From Ruminococcus sp. (GTDB lineage: Bacteria; Bacillota; Clostridia; Oscillospirales; Acutalibacteraceae), in assembly GCA_045654185.1 (NCBI GenBank), contig JAZOMY010000022.1, positions 4,891 through 68,890 of the forward strand: a stretch of DNA of 64,000 nucleotides. The letters are read 5' to 3'. The notes under the pieces were generated by a model. It made no database searches. It was given only the letters and a program-made list of their open reading frames with translations, and had not been told where the DNA came from. Positions 56,589 through 63,958 of this stretch are shown here, in pieces. The position numbers were made by a program, and so were the translations under genes. The first letter of the stretch is position 1, and each line of letters begins with the position of its first letter.

Positions 56589-56803
56589 ACCTGAGACACC
56601 TCAACTGTAAAATCATTATATGTGGCAACGTCGCCGTGGCGCATTTTCTTACCTCTCATGGTGCAGACCTCGCCGTTGACAAGCACATCACCCTGCTGGA
56701 TAACAACTTTTGCCTCACCGCCGGTGGCTACCATTCCTGAAAATTTCATCAGACTGTCAAGTCTGATGAATTCATCTTTTATTTCAATTACTTCAGACTT
56801 CAT
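56585..56803 (-). CDS. yaaA: S4-domain RNA-binding protein YaaA
   Basis: FIRLDSLMKFSGMVATGGEAK..RGKK motif and synteny. Confidence 0.9.
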   Translation of the reverse strand: MKSEVIEIKDEFIRLDSLMKFSGMVATGGEAKVVIQQGDVLVNGEVCTMRGKKMRHGDVATYNDFTVEVSQV

Positions 56804-57899
56804 CGTTTAACCTCATAGGAACTACAAGGAAGATGAACTCGTCACCCTCCAGGGGTTTGATAATCATAGGAGCAAGACTGCCGTTGAGTATAACGGTAAT
56901 CTCATCGCACTCTGTATTCTTGAGAGCATCAAGAAGATATTTGTTATTAAATCCGATTTCAACCTCGTCACCGACTGTGGAAACAGGAATATAGTCGCTG
57001 GCTCTGCCCATTGCGGTTTTGCAGGAAAGCTTGATGCTTTCTTTTAAAACTTTTACTCTGACAGGGCTCTGTACTCTCTCGCTGGTAAGCAGAGACATTC
57101 TGTCAACTGCATTAATCATTTCTCTTGTATTGACTCTGAGCTTTGTTGTTTCGGTCTTGGGCACGGTTGTGCGGTAGTCAAGGAAACTGCCTTCGATAAG
57201 TCTTGAATTCACACAGTAATTATCAACCTTGAAAATAACGTGTCTCTGACCAACGGAGATAAGAACCTCCTGCTCCTCGTCGCCGATGAGTTTGAGAATT
57301 TCGCTCTGCATCTTGCCGGGAACAATAAACTTTGTGTTTGCTTCAGAATCTGTTTTCTCACTTCTTATTGCCATACGGTAACCGTCAACGGAAATAATCT
57401 TCATTTCTCCGTCGGCAATATCAAAGAGAGAACCTGTATAGACAGGCTTTGCAAGATTATCGGAAACAGCATATATTGTCTGTTTTATCATATTCTTGAG
57501 AGTGCCTGCCTGAATTCTTATTTCATCATTTGCTTCAAAGGTGGGAATATCGGGATATTCAGCAGATGAAATACCTACAATCTGGTAATCAACGTTACCG
57601 CTCTTGATATAGATAATCATTCTTTCGTCAGTCTCGAAAGAAACAATTTCCTCGGGAAGTTTTCTGACGATATCTGCAAAGAGTTTTGCTCCCACTACAA
57701 TTTCACCCTGAACTTCTACGGATGCTTCAACGGTGGTAGTGATACCAAGCTCCAGGTCATAGCCTGAGAGAGTGAGTGTATTGTCGTATGCTTTTATGAG
57801 AATACCTTCAAGAGCAGGAAGTGTTGCTTTTGAAGAAACAGCTCTTGAAACATTCTGAACAGCCTGAACAATATCAGACTTCATAACATTGAATTTCAT
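56793..57899 (-). CDS. dnaN: DNA polymerase III beta clamp
   Basis: SGYDLELG, VDGYRMA, SRLIEG, GFNNKYLLD and LVVPMR motifs. Confidence 0.96.
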   Translation of the reverse strand: MKFNVMKSDIVQAVQNVSRAVSSKATLPALEGILIKAYDNTLTLSGYDLELGITTTVEASVEVQGEIVVGAKLFADIVRKLPEEIVSFETDERMIIYIKSGNVDYQIVGISSAEYPDIPTFEANDEIRIQAGTLKNMIKQTIYAVSDNLAKPVYTGSLFDIADGEMKIISVDGYRMAIRSEKTDSEANTKFIVPGKMQSEILKLIGDEEQEVLISVGQRHVIFKVDNYCVNSRLIEGSFLDYRTTVPKTETTKLRVNTREMINAVDRMSLLTSERVQSPVRVKVLKESIKLSCKTAMGRASDYIPVSTVGDEVEIGFNNKYLLDALKNTECDEITVILNGSLAPMIIKPLEGDEFIFLVVPMRLNDEV

Positions 57900-57939
57900 T
57901 TTTATGTATCCTTTCTTGAAATGAGTAAAAATTATCAGA

Positions 57940-58150
57940 TGATAATCAAATATATTAATTATTATAGTAGTACATAGTAGGGGGTGATAAAATGTTGAAA
58001 AGACGAAAAACCACAGAAAACAAGCGGAATTTTTTTCCTTGTGTGCATGAGGAAAAAACAGAGGTTATCAACACAGCATATTTTCAGTATTTTAAGCAGT
58101 GAAAAATGTTGAAAAAATGTTTGTTAATGTTTATGGAAATGTTGAAAACT
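57940..58150. other. Replication origin oriC: DnaA boxes, GC-rich spacer, DnaA-trios and AT-rich unwinding region
   Basis: The minus strand reads box TTTTCAACA (58001-57993), CCCCC, CTACTATGTACTACTA (57980-57965), then an AT tract. Further boxes at 58065, 58107 and 58140. Confidence 0.85.
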
Positions 58151-58188
58151 TTTCCTTTTAAAAAACTTGTTTTCAAAGTACAACATTT

Positions 58189-59505
58189 TTACCTGTCACG
58201 GATATTTTTGATAATATCCTCTACGGTTTCTTTGAGTTTGGTATTTGTCTGCATCTTCTTTTCCATCTGCTGGATGGTATAGACGATGGTGGAGTAGTGG
58301 CGGTTGCCGAAAGCTTCACCGATAGCAACCATAGAGAGGTCTGTAAGCTCTCTGGCAATATAGATAGCGATATGTCTGGGGTGATTGATGTTGGCGCGTC
58401 TGCTCTTCTGTGAGCGGATATCTTCAGCATCAACACCGAAGGTACGGGCAACTTCCTCCATAATTTTCTCAACTGTATGCTCGGGGGGAGCCTCGTTATT
58501 GAGAATATCGGAGATAACCTCAGCAATAACTATCTGATTGATTTTTTCGTTATTGAGGAGATATCTTGCGTTGAGTTTCTTGACTACGCCCTCAAGCTGA
58601 CGGACGTTGGACTTGATTTTGTTTGCTATGTATTCAGCCTGCTCATTGGTAAGAGGAAGTTCCAGAATATTTGCCTTTTTCTTGATGATGGCAATTCGGG
58701 TTTCAATATCCGGAGGCTGAAGGTCAGCGAGAAGTCCCCACTCAAATCTTGAGCGCAGACGGTCATCGAGAATTTTGATTTCCTTGGGAGGACGGTCAGA
58801 TGTAAGTACAATCTGCTTTCTTGCTTCGTAGAGAGTATTGAAGGTATGGAAGAATTCCTCCTGAGTTCTGTCTCTGCCTGCGATGAACTGAACGTCATCC
58901 ACCAGAAGAACATCCGCCTGTCTGTATTTCTGACGGAATTCCGCAGTGGTGTTGTTACCGATAGACTCGATAAGCTCGTTCATAAAGTCGTCGCCCTTGA
59001 CATACTGGATTTTTTTCTCGGGGTCGTTTTTCTTAATCTCATTGCCGATAGCATAGAGAAGGTGGGTTTTACCCAGACCGGAGCTTCCGTACATCATCAG
59101 AGGGTTGTAGGCGTTGGCGGGATTTGCAGCAACAGCCATAGCTGCTGCATGTGCAAAGGTATTTGATGAACCGACGATAAAGTTCTGGAAAGTGTATTCG
59201 TAAATTGATGTGGGAGTGTTATTTACTTTCTCTTCCTCTTTTTCTTCATCCTCATCGGGAAGAATCAGGCAAATCTCAAAGGTTGTGCCGAATACTGTGG
59301 AGAAAGCCTCGTTTAAAAGAGGCATATAACAACGCTCTAGAGTTTCTTTGTGAAATTCACTGGGAACAAGAAGCTTGGTCTGTCCCTTCTCAAAATCAAG
59401 GGAAACAGGCTCAATGCGGTTTATCCAGGTATCAAAAGCAACGTCTGTTATTTTATCTTTCAGATAGTTGCATATAATATTCCATGCTTCGTTAAAGGAA
59501 TTCAT
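58189..59505 (-). CDS. dnaA: Chromosomal replication initiator DnaA
   Basis: YNPLMMYGSSGLGKTHLL, LLVDDVQF, QEEFFHTFN and RLRSRFEWGL motifs. Start at ATG 59505 behind GGAGG. Confidence 0.97.
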   Translation of the reverse strand: MNSFNEAWNIICNYLKDKITDVAFDTWINRIEPVSLDFEKGQTKLLVPSEFHKETLERCYMPLLNEAFSTVFGTTFEICLILPDEDEEKEEEKVNNTPTSIYEYTFQNFIVGSSNTFAHAAAMAVAANPANAYNPLMMYGSSGLGKTHLLYAIGNEIKKNDPEKKIQYVKGDDFMNELIESIGNNTTAEFRQKYRQADVLLVDDVQFIAGRDRTQEEFFHTFNTLYEARKQIVLTSDRPPKEIKILDDRLRSRFEWGLLADLQPPDIETRIAIIKKKANILELPLTNEQAEYIANKIKSNVRQLEGVVKKLNARYLLNNEKINQIVIAEVISDILNNEAPPEHTVEKIMEEVARTFGVDAEDIRSQKSRRANINHPRHIAIYIARELTDLSMVAIGEAFGNRHYSTIVYTIQQMEKKMQTNTKLKETVEDIIKNIRDR

Positions 59506-59874
59506 TTTAATCCTCCTGTTAAGATTTTTGAACTTACATAGTCTGTTACTGACAAAATTCAGGATAACAACTTTCCTGTGAACAGACAAAACTACTTACT
59601 ATAACATTCTATCAAAAATTTAATAAAAAATCAATGCTTTGGATGTAATTTTTTTGCATTATTAAAGTATATATAACATTTTAATAATACCCCCTGTGGA
59701 AAGAATTTGCCGTACCTGTAATTTGTGTGGGATAAATGGCATAAATACAAGATATTGTGTATAAAATTTTAATTTTTTTAAATCATAATAATATTGAAAA
59801 TTTTTGTTGACTACGGCGCAAATTTGAGTTATAATGCTAACTTGTAAGGTTATGTATCCGAAAGGAGGATTAAT
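59506..59874. promoter_or_regulatory. Divergent dnaA/rpmH promoter region with DnaA-box-like sites
   Basis: TGTGGAAAG (59695), TGTGTATAA (59756) and TATAAT at 59830; AT-rich. Confidence 0.6.
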
Positions 59875-62458: not shown

Positions 62459-62523
62459 TTTCGGCGGATTTTGCCCGTCGGTTTATAGGGCGGCGGTAAG
62501 CTGCCCTATATTTTTTATTCAGT

Positions 62524-62555
62524 TTTTCAACATAATTTGAAATCAATGTTGAAAA
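62524..62555. promoter_or_regulatory. Inverted pair of TTTTCAACA DnaA-box-like sites upstream of mnmE
   Basis: TTTTCAACA (62524-62532) and TGTTGAAAA (62547-62555), the same 9-mer as in oriC. Confidence 0.6.
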
Positions 62556-62590: not shown

Positions 62591-63958
62591 ATGACAGACA
62601 GAACAATAGCCGCAATAAGTACTGCACAGGGTGAAGGCGGTATCGGTATTATCAGAATTTCGGGAACTGAGGCAATAGCTGTTGCCGACAGGGTTTTCCG
62701 CTCTGTGGGAGAGAAACCCCTCTGTGCTCTGAAAGGTTACCGTGCATCCTATGGAAAAATTGTTTCACAGAATCAGATTATCGATGAGGCGGTAGCAATT
62801 GTATATCGTGCACCTCACAGTTATACAGGTGAGGATGTGGTTGAACTTTGCTGTCACGGCGGACTTTATGTTACCCGTCAGGTTCTGCGTACTGTCATTG
62901 ATGAGGGTGCCTCTCTGGCAGAGCCGGGAGAATTCACAAAGAGAGCCTTTATAAACGGAAAAATGGACCTTTGTGAAGCACAGTCGGTTATGGATATTAT
63001 CTCTGCCCAGAGCCGTCAGGCGGCAAGAGCCGCGGTGAGTGTCCGCCAGGGCGCTCTGTCTGTAAAAATCAATACAATGAAATCTAAACTTCTGAGCCTT
63101 GCGGCGCATCTTTCCGCATGGGCGGATTTTCCCGAGGAAGATATTCCCGAGGTTCAGGATACTGCGGTACTTTCTGACCTTCAGTTCTGCGAGAAAACCC
63201 TCGTGAAACTTCTTCAGGATTACGAAAAAGGCAAGGCTGTTACAAAAGGTGTGGATACGGTTATCGCAGGTAAACCCAATGTTGGTAAATCCACCCTGAT
63301 GAATCTTCTCTCCGGATTTGAAAAGAGCATAGTAACGGAAATTCCCGGCACCACCCGGGATGTTGTGGAGGAGTCGGTTATTGTGGGAGATGTTACACTG
63401 CGACTTTCAGACACAGCAGGAATAAGAGAAACCGATAATGAAGTAGAAAAAATCGGCGTACTCAGAGCTAAAGAAAAACTCAACTCCTCTGCACTTGTTC
63501 TGGCTGTTTTTGACGGCAGTCGGGAGTTTGACGAGGAAGATAAACACCTTATCAATAGTCTTGAGGGTATTCCCACAGTGGCTATTGTCAACAAAACCGA
63601 CCTTGAACTTAAATTTGATACTTCATATCTTAATGAAAAAATAGGAAAAATTGTTTATATAAGTGCCAAAGAGGGTGACGGCAAAGACGACCTTGAACAG
63701 GCTGTCACCGAGTTACTTGGTACAAAGGATTTTAATCCTTCCGAAGGTATACTTTCCACCGAGCGCCAGAGAGAAGCAACACAGAAAGCTCTCAACAGTG
63801 TAAGGGATGCAGTCAATACGCTGACTTTTGGCTATTCTCTGGATGCGGTAACGGTGTGTGTTGAGGATGCTATCGAAAGCCTCCTCTCTCTCACAGGCGA
63901 GAATTTAAGCGAAACGGTAGTTAATGAGGTATTCCACAACTTCTGTCTCGGAAAATAA
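62591..63958 (+). CDS. mnmE: tRNA modification GTPase MnmE
   Basis: IAAISTA, GKPNVGKSTL, GTTRD, DTAG, NKTD and C-terminal FCLGK motifs. Confidence 0.96.
   Translation: MTDRTIAAISTAQGEGGIGIIRISGTEAIAVADRVFRSVGEKPLCALKGYRASYGKIVSQNQIIDEAVAIVYRAPHSYTGEDVVELCCHGGLYVTRQVLRTVIDEGASLAEPGEFTKRAFINGKMDLCEAQSVMDIISAQSRQAARAAVSVRQGALSVKINTMKSKLLSLAAHLSAWADFPEEDIPEVQDTAVLSDLQFCEKTLVKLLQDYEKGKAVTKGVDTVIAGKPNVGKSTLMNLLSGFEKSIVTEIPGTTRDVVEESVIVGDVTLRLSDTAGIRETDNEVEKIGVLRAKEKLNSSALVLAVFDGSREFDEEDKHLINSLEGIPTVAIVNKTDLELKFDTSYLNEKIGKIVYISAKEGDGKDDLEQAVTELLGTKDFNPSEGILSTERQREATQKALNSVRDAVNTLTFGYSLDAVTVCVEDAIESLLSLTGENLSETVVNEVFHNFCLGK

What the first reader, a model, noticed from the sequence alone, without database searches (positions are those of the whole stretch)
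57940..58400. DnaA with a rewired recognition helix and an origin built from TTWTCAACA boxes
Seen: domain IV reads SMVAIGEAFGNRHYSTIV where E. coli has [18 protein letters not shown]. The equivalents of the base-contacting residues P423, D433 and H434 are V, H and Y. I found no exact TTATCCACA in either origin-flanking intergenic region. Instead TTWTCAACA occurs four times in dnaA-dnaN (57993, 58065, 58107, 58140) and twice before mnmE, including beside an otherwise B. subtilis-like GC spacer/DnaA-trio/AT unwinding module. Known: DnaA-box co-variation has precedent (e.g. Thermotoga). Inference: a lineage-specific DnaA/box code. Caveat: TGTGTATAA at 59756 fits the standard consensus.
Basis: partly seen in the sequence, partly recalled or inferred. 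Interest (0 to 1): 0.65.

Follow-up and report, generated by a model that had tools for sequence, protein, structure and literature searches.

The report
Replication origin with CAACA-type DnaA boxes

Summary
The only DnaA of this 2.03-Mb genome reads SMVAIGEAFGNRHYSTIVYT where E. coli has [20 protein letters not shown]. Of the six known base-contacting residues, only R399 is kept. The dnaA-dnaN spacer holds four TTWTCAACA boxes and no TTWTCCACA. One box sits exactly where the essential DnaA-box of a B. subtilis-type unwinding module belongs: AT-rich stretch, TAG trios, GGGG, degenerate box, TTTTCAACA.

- A sister genus (23 species) with the canonical RDH dyad has the same TGTTGAAAA boxes at the same place.
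- A sibling species with an identical helix carries TGTGGAAAA at three orthologous boxes.
- An unrelated lineage with the HY dyad uses perfect TTATCCACA.
- On a DnaA tree, the HY clade is nested inside at least four RDH clades, most of which already prefer CAACA.

A family-wide preference for A at box position 6 is real: about 7-13-fold enrichment, against about 27-fold for CCACA in canonical relatives. Which residues set it is unresolved; loss of P423 or D433 associates only weakly. The consensus TT(A/T)TC(C/A)ACA is already published for Mollicutes. The finding is a new variant of a known kind and of moderate interest.

The parts
58189..59505 (-). dnaA, 438 aa, the single copy in the genome
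   Evidence: Pfam DnaA_N/Bac_DnaA/Bac_DnaA_C. It is the only PF08299 match in the genome. The ATG start was chosen by alignment with relatives.
58276..58335 (-). Codons for the helix-turn-helix SMVAIGEAFGNRHYSTIVYT; the recognition helix RHYSTIVYT is 58276-58302
   Evidence: Relative to E. coli: P423V, D433H, H434Y, T435S, H439Y.
58372..58413 (-). Codons for the basic loop SQKSRRANINHPRH, which holds the conserved R399 equivalent
   Evidence: HMMER alignment to 1J1V; coordinates.
57921..57964 (.). AT-rich stretch (86% A+T), the likely DNA unwinding element
   Evidence: Its position beside the trios matches B. subtilis and C. difficile oriC2 (PMC8287927, PMC7561715).
57965..57980 (+). DnaA-trios TAGTAGTAC-A-TAGTAG (5'-TAG = 3'-GAT-5'), interrupted by one base
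   Evidence: The same interrupted form occurs in L002, L003 and L095. More distant relatives have (TAG)3-6.
57981..57984 (.). GGGG spacer
   Evidence: GGGG, GGGC or similar stands at this place in most relatives.
57985..57992 (-). Degenerate trio-proximal box (TGATAAAA), the equivalent of B. subtilis DnaA-box 7
   Evidence: Relatives have TGTTAAAA, TGTTAATT or TGTGGATT here.
57993..58001 (-). TTTTCAACA box, the equivalent of the essential B. subtilis DnaA-box 6, 12 bp from the trios
   Evidence: The spacer of 10-13 bp is typical of the unwinding module (PMC8287927).
58065..58073 (+). TTATCAACA box in the opposite orientation
   Evidence: The orthologous site is TTTTCAACA in L002 and TTATTAACA in L003 and L095.
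58107..58115 (-). TTTTCAACA(T) box
   Evidence: The orthologous box is TGTTGAAAA in L003 and TGTGGAAAA in L095.
58140..58148 (-). TTTTCAACA(T) box
   Evidence: It is conserved in L002 and L003, and is TGTGGAAAA in L095.
59509..59874 (.). rpmH-dnaA spacer. It has no box cluster, only TTATACACA (59756) and the near-boxes CTTTCCACA (59695) and TGTGGGATAA (59725), plus the rpmH promoter TTGACT-17-TATAAT.
   Evidence: Enrichment of boxes upstream of dnaA is weak in this whole clade.
62524..62555 (.). Inverted pair TTTTCAACAT-N12-ATGTTGAAAA, 36 bp upstream of the mnmE start (62591) and just after the jag terminator (62485-62516)
   Evidence: The closest relative L182 keeps it as TTATCAACA-N14-TGTTGATAA in otherwise diverged sequence. 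It is absent in more distant relatives. B. subtilis has a DnaA site at jag-thdF (PMC2533591).

Best explanation
The region is the chromosomal origin of an uncultured Oscillospirales (Acutalibacteraceae-like, 'Ruminococcus sp.') gut bacterium. It is built like the B. subtilis and C. difficile dnaA-dnaN origin.

Proposed mechanism (inferred):
1. DnaA binds the TTTTCAACA box at 57993 and the degenerate box next to it.
2. It oligomerises across the GGGG spacer onto the TAG trios.
3. It opens the 86% A+T stretch at 57921-57964.
4. The three further boxes at 58065, 58107 and 58140 feed or stabilise the complex.
5. An inverted box pair before mnmE is a lineage-specific extra DnaA site.

The A at box position 6 is a preference of the whole family and its nearest outgroups. 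It arose while DnaA still had the canonical Asp433-His434 dyad. The His-Tyr dyad of this genus came later and did not change which boxes are used. This DnaA most likely accepts both C and A at position 6, reading roughly TTWT[C/T][A/C]ACA.

Shown here: the anatomy, the enrichments, and the distribution of helix types and box types among relatives. Inferred: binding itself, the relaxed specificity, and the order of events (by parsimony).
For: Origin:
- Cumulative GC skew has its minimum at about 58 kb.
- Gene order is rpmH / dnaA-dnaN-yaaA-recF-gyrB, with a single dnaA.

Boxes:
- 4 TTWTCAACA in 289 bp, against 127 in 2.03 Mb; this is the only such cluster in the genome.
- 5 of the 18 genomic TTTTCAACAT lie in the two origin-proximal spacers.
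- The 57993 box is 12 bp from the trios, as in the unwinding module defined in PMC8287927.

Clade-wide preference, as observed/expected counts of TGTGNAWA versus TGTTNAWA in dnaA-dnaN spacers:
- Canonical D-H-T-H helices: 26.8x versus 2.8x.
- RDH..S..Y relatives: 8.1x versus 13.2x.
- RHY..S..Y (window type): 3.9x versus 7.4x.

Separation of helix type from box type:
- 23 species with GGRDHSTIVYAL have GGGC-TGTTAATT-TGTTGAAAA next to the trios.
- L003 and L095 have identical helices but TGTTGAAAA x3 versus TGTGGAAAA x3.
- L206 (GGKHYTTVLHAC) has TGTGGATTA-TGTGGATAA next to the trios and further TTATCCACA.

Tree: the HY clade is nested within at least four successive DH sister clades. Their C6/A6 counts are 22/107, 4/4, 1/5 and 0/4.

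Precedent: the Mollicutes consensus TT(A/T)TC(C/A)ACA (PMC3322544), and a TGTTGATAA box next to TGTGGATAA in the Thermoanaerobacter tengcongensis oriC probe (PMC1888806).
Against: - No binding data exist, and the organism is uncultured.
- Box typing rests on a loose 8-mer pattern in A+T-rich spacers. Enrichment for CCACA-type words is also above chance in this clade (3.9-8.1x), so 'preference' may be only relaxation.
- The three parallel T-to-G changes between L003 and L095 with an identical helix are unexplained. They could mean that specificity is set elsewhere in DnaA.
- At the level of lineages, loss of D433 does associate with A-type boxes: D433 is kept in 6/17 A-type units against 16/19 C-type units. 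Residue 433 may therefore matter in other lineages.
- HY-type spacers have more T at box position 5 and at the base after the box than RDH-type spacers. The dyad may not be fully neutral.
- FastTree supports on the relevant nodes are 68-100.
Confidence: 0.75

Rival explanations
1. One reading: P423V, D433H and H434Y rewire the recognition helix so that this DnaA specifically reads CAACA instead of CCACA, a matched protein/site code.
For: - Five of the six base-contacting residues differ, and the helix 434-451 reads TnCACA (PMC5742627).
- There is no TTWTCCACA in the origin spacers.
- The HY dyad is rare: 3 of 401 sampled Clostridia genomes.
- At lineage level, non-Asp at 433 is commoner with A-type boxes.
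Against: - The same CAACA boxes are used by RDH relatives.
- The identical helix goes with CCACA boxes in L095.
- The HY dyad goes with perfect TTATCCACA in L206.
- Window-type (HY) and RDH..S..Y groups have similar box spectra.
- In the independent-pairs test for HY versus DH, box type is unchanged in 1.5 of 2 pairs.
Confidence: 0.07
2. Co-evolution is real but sits at other residues. Loss of Pro423 (V or E here), and in other lineages Asp433-to-Asn, shifts the preference at position 6 from C to A. The HY dyad is a later, functionally equivalent replacement of DH.
For: Among 36 lineage units with a clear preference:
- P423 is kept in 3/17 A-type against 14/19 C-type (p 0.001).
- N433 occurs in 6/17 against 0/19 (p 0.006).
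- D433 is kept in 6/17 against 16/19 (p 0.005).

V or E at 423 is shared by the window's DnaA and its CAACA-using RDH relatives. KNH helices have 0 TGTG against 20 TGTT words. Asn-adenine versus Asp-cytosine is a common recognition pattern (general knowledge).
Against: - The p-values are uncorrected for about 200 tests and for shared ancestry.
- The independent-pairs test gives no support for P423 (0.8 pairs go the same way, 2.0 the other way) and too few pairs for N433.
- L122 (P423, KNH) is A-type.
- L227 (V423, RDHTT..Y) is C-type.
- The interim idea that S435+Y439 suffice was refuted by outside lineages: L226 has 15 C6 against 1 A6, and f43 has 20 against 5. M. tuberculosis also argues against it (RDHTTVMY with CCACA boxes, PMC5043019).
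Confidence: 0.3
3. No protein change is involved. CAACA is a tolerated one-mismatch box for any DnaA, and A+T mutational pressure in these spacers drives C to A.
For: - L032, with a fully canonical helix ([17 protein letters not shown]), has TGTTGAAAA at the box-6 place.
- T. tengcongensis oriC holds TGTTGATAA.
- A-type spacers are more A+T-rich: 0.72 against 0.59.
- A+T-rich Mollicutes show the same C/A variability.
Against: - Lineages with spacers of 0.70-0.78 A+T keep CCACA: L226 (0.78; 15 against 1), and L229-L232 (0.69-0.72; 31 against 3).
- Canonical helices show 26.8x against 2.8x enrichment, which is strong discrimination.
- The essential box-6 equivalent is [T/A]GTTGAA in all 23 listed sister-genus species, which argues for selection and not decay.
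Confidence: 0.15
4. The TGTTGAA repeats are Spo0A (0A-box, TGTCGAA-like) sites and not DnaA boxes.
For: The genome encodes Spo0A (PF08769, 158 bits). TGTTGAA differs from TGTCGAA by one base. That 0A boxes overlap DnaA boxes in B. subtilis oriC is my own recollection, not checked here.
Against: - The origin would then have no DnaA box at the place the unwinding module requires.
- The T is invariant where the 0A box needs C.
- The same positions hold TGTGGAAAA in L095 and in canonical relatives.
Confidence: 0.03

Closest known systems
B. subtilis oriC incC basal unwinding system (DnaA-boxes 6/7, GC spacer, DnaA-trios, AT-rich region) and C. difficile oriC2
   Same: Same locus (dnaA-dnaN). Same order of elements and same strand logic: the minus strand reads box-CCCC-CTACTA..., like C. 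difficile's CACCTACTACTATTACTACTA (PMC7561715). The better box lies 12 bp from the trios, with a tandem weaker box between (PMC8287927, PMC6669920).
   Different: The essential box is TTTTCAACA, not the consensus TTATCCACA. The trios are interrupted by one base. There is no clear box cluster upstream of dnaA. DnaA differs at 5 of 6 base-contacting residues that PMC7561715 calls conserved among all Firmicutes.
Mollicutes DnaA-box consensus TT(A/T)TC(C/A)ACA, and Acholeplasma laidlawii TT(T/A)T(C/T)(C/A)ACA (PMC3322544)
   Same: The same variable position 6 (C/A), and in A. laidlawii also position 5 (C/T), matching the spectrum seen here.
   Different: A different class (Bacilli-related, against Clostridia). 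The consensus there came from annotation and oriC-plasmid work. The domain IV residues of those DnaAs were not examined here.
Thermotoga maritima DnaA and its 12-mer box AAACCTACCACC
   Same: Precedent for substitutions in domain IV going with a changed box (PMC6669920, PMC7561715).
   Different: There the box is entirely different and the link was shown biochemically. Here one position shifts, and the proposed causal residues are not supported.
Epsilonproteobacterial DnaA (variation at 435, 438-439; boxes with obligatory T at position 5)
   Same: Variation at Ser435 and at position 439 (K/H/Y), with a lineage-specific box position (PMC5043019).
   Different: That paper calls the 433-434 dyad highly conserved. 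Here it is replaced by His-Tyr, and the affected box position is 6.

Membership tests
DnaA initiator | Domains DnaA_N, AAA+ Bac_DnaA and C-terminal Bac_DnaA_C | tested here: met
   E-values 8.5e-12, 4.3e-70 and 1.1e-22, all above the Pfam cut-offs. Best solved relatives are 8BTG, 1J1V and 3PVP.
DnaA initiator | Single chromosomal copy at rpmH-dnaA-dnaN beside the GC-skew switch | tested here: met
DnaA initiator | Canonical base-contacting residues R399, P423, D433, H434, T435, H439 | tested here: not met
   Only R399 is kept. The others are V, H, Y, S, Y. This does not affect membership of the protein family, only the expectation of canonical specificity.
Basal unwinding system (BUS) origin | A DnaA-box 0-16 bp (typically 10-13 bp) from at least 3 NAN trios, with GAT (5'-TAG) preferred near the box | tested here: met
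   The box at 57993 is 12 bp from TAGTAG. The trios are TAGTAGTAC-A-TAGTAG. Caveat: only two uninterrupted trios lie next to the spacer.
Basal unwinding system (BUS) origin | AT-rich unwinding region beyond the trios | tested here: met
   57921-57964 is 86% A+T.
Basal unwinding system (BUS) origin | DnaA-dependent strand opening at this site | not testable with these tools
   Needs P1 nuclease or KMnO4 footprinting with purified protein.
Canonical DnaA-box TTWTNCACA | C at position 6 | tested here: not met
   All six intergenic boxes have A at position 6. The only perfect canonical match in the three spacers is TTATACACA at 59756.
Mollicutes-type DnaA-box TT(A/T)TC(C/A)ACA | Match to the published consensus | tested here: met
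   TTTTCAACA and TTATCAACA fit it. Shared ancestry of the trait was not tested.
Matched DnaA/box specificity switch (Thermotoga-like) | The box change tracks the helix change across relatives | tested here: not met
   For the HY dyad. For other residues the result is inconclusive.

The most novel reading that the evidence does not exclude
Oscillospirales DnaA proteins form a natural series of recognition-helix variants (RDH, RHH, RHY, KNH, MHH, ... with P, V or E at 423 and T, S or A at 435) whose origins shift between CCACA and CAACA boxes. In this reading the family-wide C-to-A shift at box position 6 is a true co-evolved change of specificity, set by residues outside the classical dyad (for example loss of Pro423). 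The His-Tyr dyad would be a previously unrecognised functional equivalent of the near-invariant Asp-His dyad.
Probability: 0.3. Interest if true: 0.55.

Novelty: new variant of a known kind. Interest (0 to 1): 0.35.

Why it matters
Origin-finding tools and much of the literature assume the TTATCCACA box and the RDHTT helix for Firmicutes. [quoted passage not shown] In this abundant gut family both assumptions fail: the essential box is TTTTCAACA, and the Asp-His dyad can be replaced by His-Tyr. Origin prediction for these MAGs should therefore allow A at position 6. The order offers many natural helix variants, each with its own origin, as a data set for working out how DnaA reads positions 5-6. 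The negative result is also useful: changes in contact residues cannot be read directly as a changed box code.

Tried and rejected
1. My interim hypothesis was that T435S plus H439Y cause the A6 preference (group counts). I rejected it. Independent lineages outside the order with RDHST..Y or KDHST..Y keep CCACA (L226 15/1; f43 20/5). M. tuberculosis (RDHTTVMY) uses CCACA (PMC5043019).
2. I ran a phylogenetically independent pairs test on a DnaA tree built from domains I-III. There are too few independent transitions for any residue to reach significance. HY versus DH has 2 changes, and Y439 versus H439 has 10 changes with 2.7 pairs going the same way against 0.3 the other way.
3. Column-by-column Fisher tests gave suggestive hits only (S396, P423, D433). 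These are not corrected for multiple tests or for ancestry.
4. Conservation of the mnmE-upstream pair: it is found only in the closest relative.
5. Absence of Spo0A as a way to dismiss 0A boxes: Spo0A is present.
6. The Fujikawa 2003 structure paper (PMC153737) is not held. I therefore could not cite which residue touches which base, and no coordinates were available to compute contacts.
8. Earlier notes of this scan hold nothing on this region.

Full report
LAYOUT. The finding lies in the classical origin neighbourhood. On the minus strand are gyrB, recF, yaaA, dnaN (56793-57899) and dnaA (58189-59505). On the plus strand are rpmH (from about 59875), rnpA, yidD, yidC, jag and mnmE (62591-63958). 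Cumulative GC skew reaches its minimum at about 58 kb of the window. The genome (2.03 Mb, 22 contigs, 44.5% G+C) has a single DnaA. Named relatives are uncultured 'Ruminococcus sp.', Oscillospiraceae or Acutalibacteraceae MAGs from ruminant and human gut.

OBSERVATION. HMMER alignments to the solved E. coli (1J1V) and B. subtilis (8BTG) proteins put GNRHYSTIVYT on [11 protein letters not shown] / [11 protein letters not shown]. Of the six residues reported to make base-specific contacts (R399, P423, D433, H434, T435, H439; PMC2533591 and PMC7561715), only R399 is kept. The others are V, H, Y, S and Y. TTWTCAACA occurs 8 times in the window against 1.9 expected. Four copies lie in the 289-bp dnaA-dnaN spacer, which is the only cluster of 3 or more per 400 bp in the genome. 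Two more form an inverted pair before mnmE. TTWTCCACA is absent from all three spacers. Five of the six boxes extend to TTTTCAACAT. Of the 18 genomic copies of that 10-mer, five lie in these two spacers.

ANATOMY. Read on the plus strand, the spacer runs as follows:
- dnaN ribosome-binding site;
- a 44-bp stretch of 86% A+T (57921-57964);
- TAGTAGTAC-A-TAGTAG (57965-57980);
- GGGG;
- TGATAAAA;
- TGTTGAAAA (57993-58001);
- three further boxes.
This is the basal unwinding system described for B. subtilis and predicted widely: a tandem box pair with the better box distal, a spacer of typically 10-13 bp, 3'-GAT-5' trios and AT-rich DNA (PMC8287927, PMC6669920). Here the better box is 12 bp from the trios. 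Relatives show the same structure with (TAG)3-6. The CAACA box therefore occupies the place of the one box that is essential in B. subtilis. This is the strongest argument that it is a DnaA box. The GC-rich element beside the mnmE boxes is the jag terminator hairpin.

TEST OF THE INTERPRETATION. I collected dnaA loci from about 170 distinct species of the order and class. Four results separate the His-Tyr dyad from the CAACA box.
1. A sister genus of 23 species with GGRDHSTIVYAL has, next to its trios, GGGC-TGTTAATT-TGTTGAAAA.
2. L003 and L095 are sibling species with 92% identical DnaA and an identical helix-turn-helix. They carry TGTTGAAAA and TGTGGAAAA respectively at three orthologous boxes.
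3. The HY dyad is rare, found in 3 of 401 sampled Clostridia genomes. In another order, L206 (GGKHYTTVLHAC) has TGTGGATTA-TGTGGATAA at its trios and further perfect TTATCCACA boxes.
4. On a tree of DnaA domains I-III, the HY clade holds 36 HY, one RHH and five RDH sequences. It is nested in at least four successive RDH sister clades with C6/A6 word counts of 22/107, 4/4, 1/5 and 0/4. The A6 preference therefore predates the dyad change.

WHAT IS REAL ABOUT THE LINEAGE EFFECT. Observed/expected counts against mononucleotide shuffles are:
- 26.8x for CCACA-type and 2.8x for CAACA-type words in fully canonical helices (19 species);
- 8.1x and 13.2x in RDH..S..Y relatives (31 species);
- 3.9x and 7.4x in the window's RHY..S..Y type (35 species).
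Trio-anchored boxes give the same picture: the box-6 equivalent is G in 8/8 canonical, T in 22/25 RDH..S..Y and T in 12/16 RHY..S..Y. The family thus prefers, or at least tolerates, A at position 6. It still uses some CCACA boxes.

WHICH RESIDUES ARE RESPONSIBLE. This remains open.
- S435+Y439 looked promising. Independent lineages outside the order refute it, as does M. tuberculosis.
- Among 36 lineage units with a clear preference, retention of P423 (3/17 against 14/19) and of D433 (6/17 against 16/19; N433 in 6/17 against 0/19) associate with box type. These values are uncorrected, and the independent-pairs test has no power.
- A+T pressure alone does not explain the shift, because lineages with spacers of 70-78% A+T keep CCACA.

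COMPARISON WITH WHAT IS KNOWN. The architecture is that of B. subtilis incC and C. difficile oriC2. A DnaA-box consensus with C/A at position 6, TT(A/T)TC(C/A)ACA, is already published for Mollicutes, and TT(T/A)T(C/T)(C/A)ACA for Acholeplasma (PMC3322544). TGTTGATAA stands beside TGTGGATAA in the T. tengcongensis origin probe (PMC1888806). Box/helix co-variation has precedents in Thermotoga and in Epsilonproteobacteria, where 435 and 438-439 vary but the 433-434 dyad is called highly conserved (PMC5043019). New here:
- the extension of the CAACA preference to a Clostridia family;
- the replacement of the dyad by His-Tyr, with an RHH form (L004) that may be an intermediate;
- the evidence that this replacement is not what changes the box.

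RIVALS. A Spo0A-box reading is unlikely, although Spo0A is encoded. The sites fill the DnaA-box slots of the unwinding module and alternate with TGTGGAAAA in relatives.

VERDICT. The lineage box preference holds; causation by the HY dyad does not. This is a new variant of a known kind, of moderate interest.

Noticed in passing
L003 (G014:C44) and L095 (JAZQAF010000015.1), dnaA-dnaN spacers: These sibling species have an identical DnaA helix-turn-helix but differ by the same T/G change at three orthologous boxes (TGTTGAAAA x3 against TGTGGAAAA x3). The trio-proximal TGTTAATAA and the reverse TTATTAACA are unchanged. A concerted switch with no helix change is unexplained.
   Followed up: partly
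L004 (G017:C53; JAUNJO010000017.1): This DnaA has the helix GNRHHSTIVYT (D433H only, H434 kept) and sits inside the HY clade. It may be an intermediate between the DH and HY dyads.
   Followed up: no
window 62524-62555: A perfect inverted pair TTTTCAACAT-N12-ATGTTGAAAA lies 36 bp before mnmE. The closest relative (L182) has TTATCAACA-N14-TGTTGATAA in otherwise diverged sequence, and more distant relatives lack it. This parallels the jag-thdF DnaA site of B. subtilis.
   Followed up: partly
own genome C4:145983-146003 (outside the window): An intergenic tandem TTTTCCACA-tag-TTTTCAACA has one CCACA and one CAACA box 3 bp apart, the spacing of the two-box probe of T. tengcongensis. It may be a DnaA site outside the origin.
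   Followed up: no
window 59509-59874: The rpmH-dnaA spacer has no DnaA-box cluster, only TTATACACA at 59756 and two near-boxes. Upstream enrichment is weak in the whole clade, so the origin may be effectively one-part, unlike B. subtilis and C. difficile.
   Followed up: partly
window 57965-57980: The DnaA-trios are interrupted by one base (TAGTAGTAC-A/G-TAGTAG). This form is conserved in the four closest species, while other relatives have uninterrupted (TAG)3-6.
   Followed up: no
L033 and L145 (family f11): A second HY-dyad lineage within the same order (GDRHYSTVNYAI) has neither CCACA nor CAACA words next to its trios. It has repeated TTATGAAA instead, possibly yet another box type.
   Followed up: no
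order-wide sample: The recognition helix of DnaA is unusually variable across this order (RDH, RHY, RHH, KNH, RNH, KDH, MHH, QHH, RKH, LDH ...). KNH/RNH helices go almost only with TGTT-type words (0 against 20 in four species).
   Followed up: partly
window 58189-59589: The longest ORF starts at a TTG 28 codons upstream of the ATG (59505) that aligns with all relatives. The upstream extension is probably not translated.
   Followed up: partly
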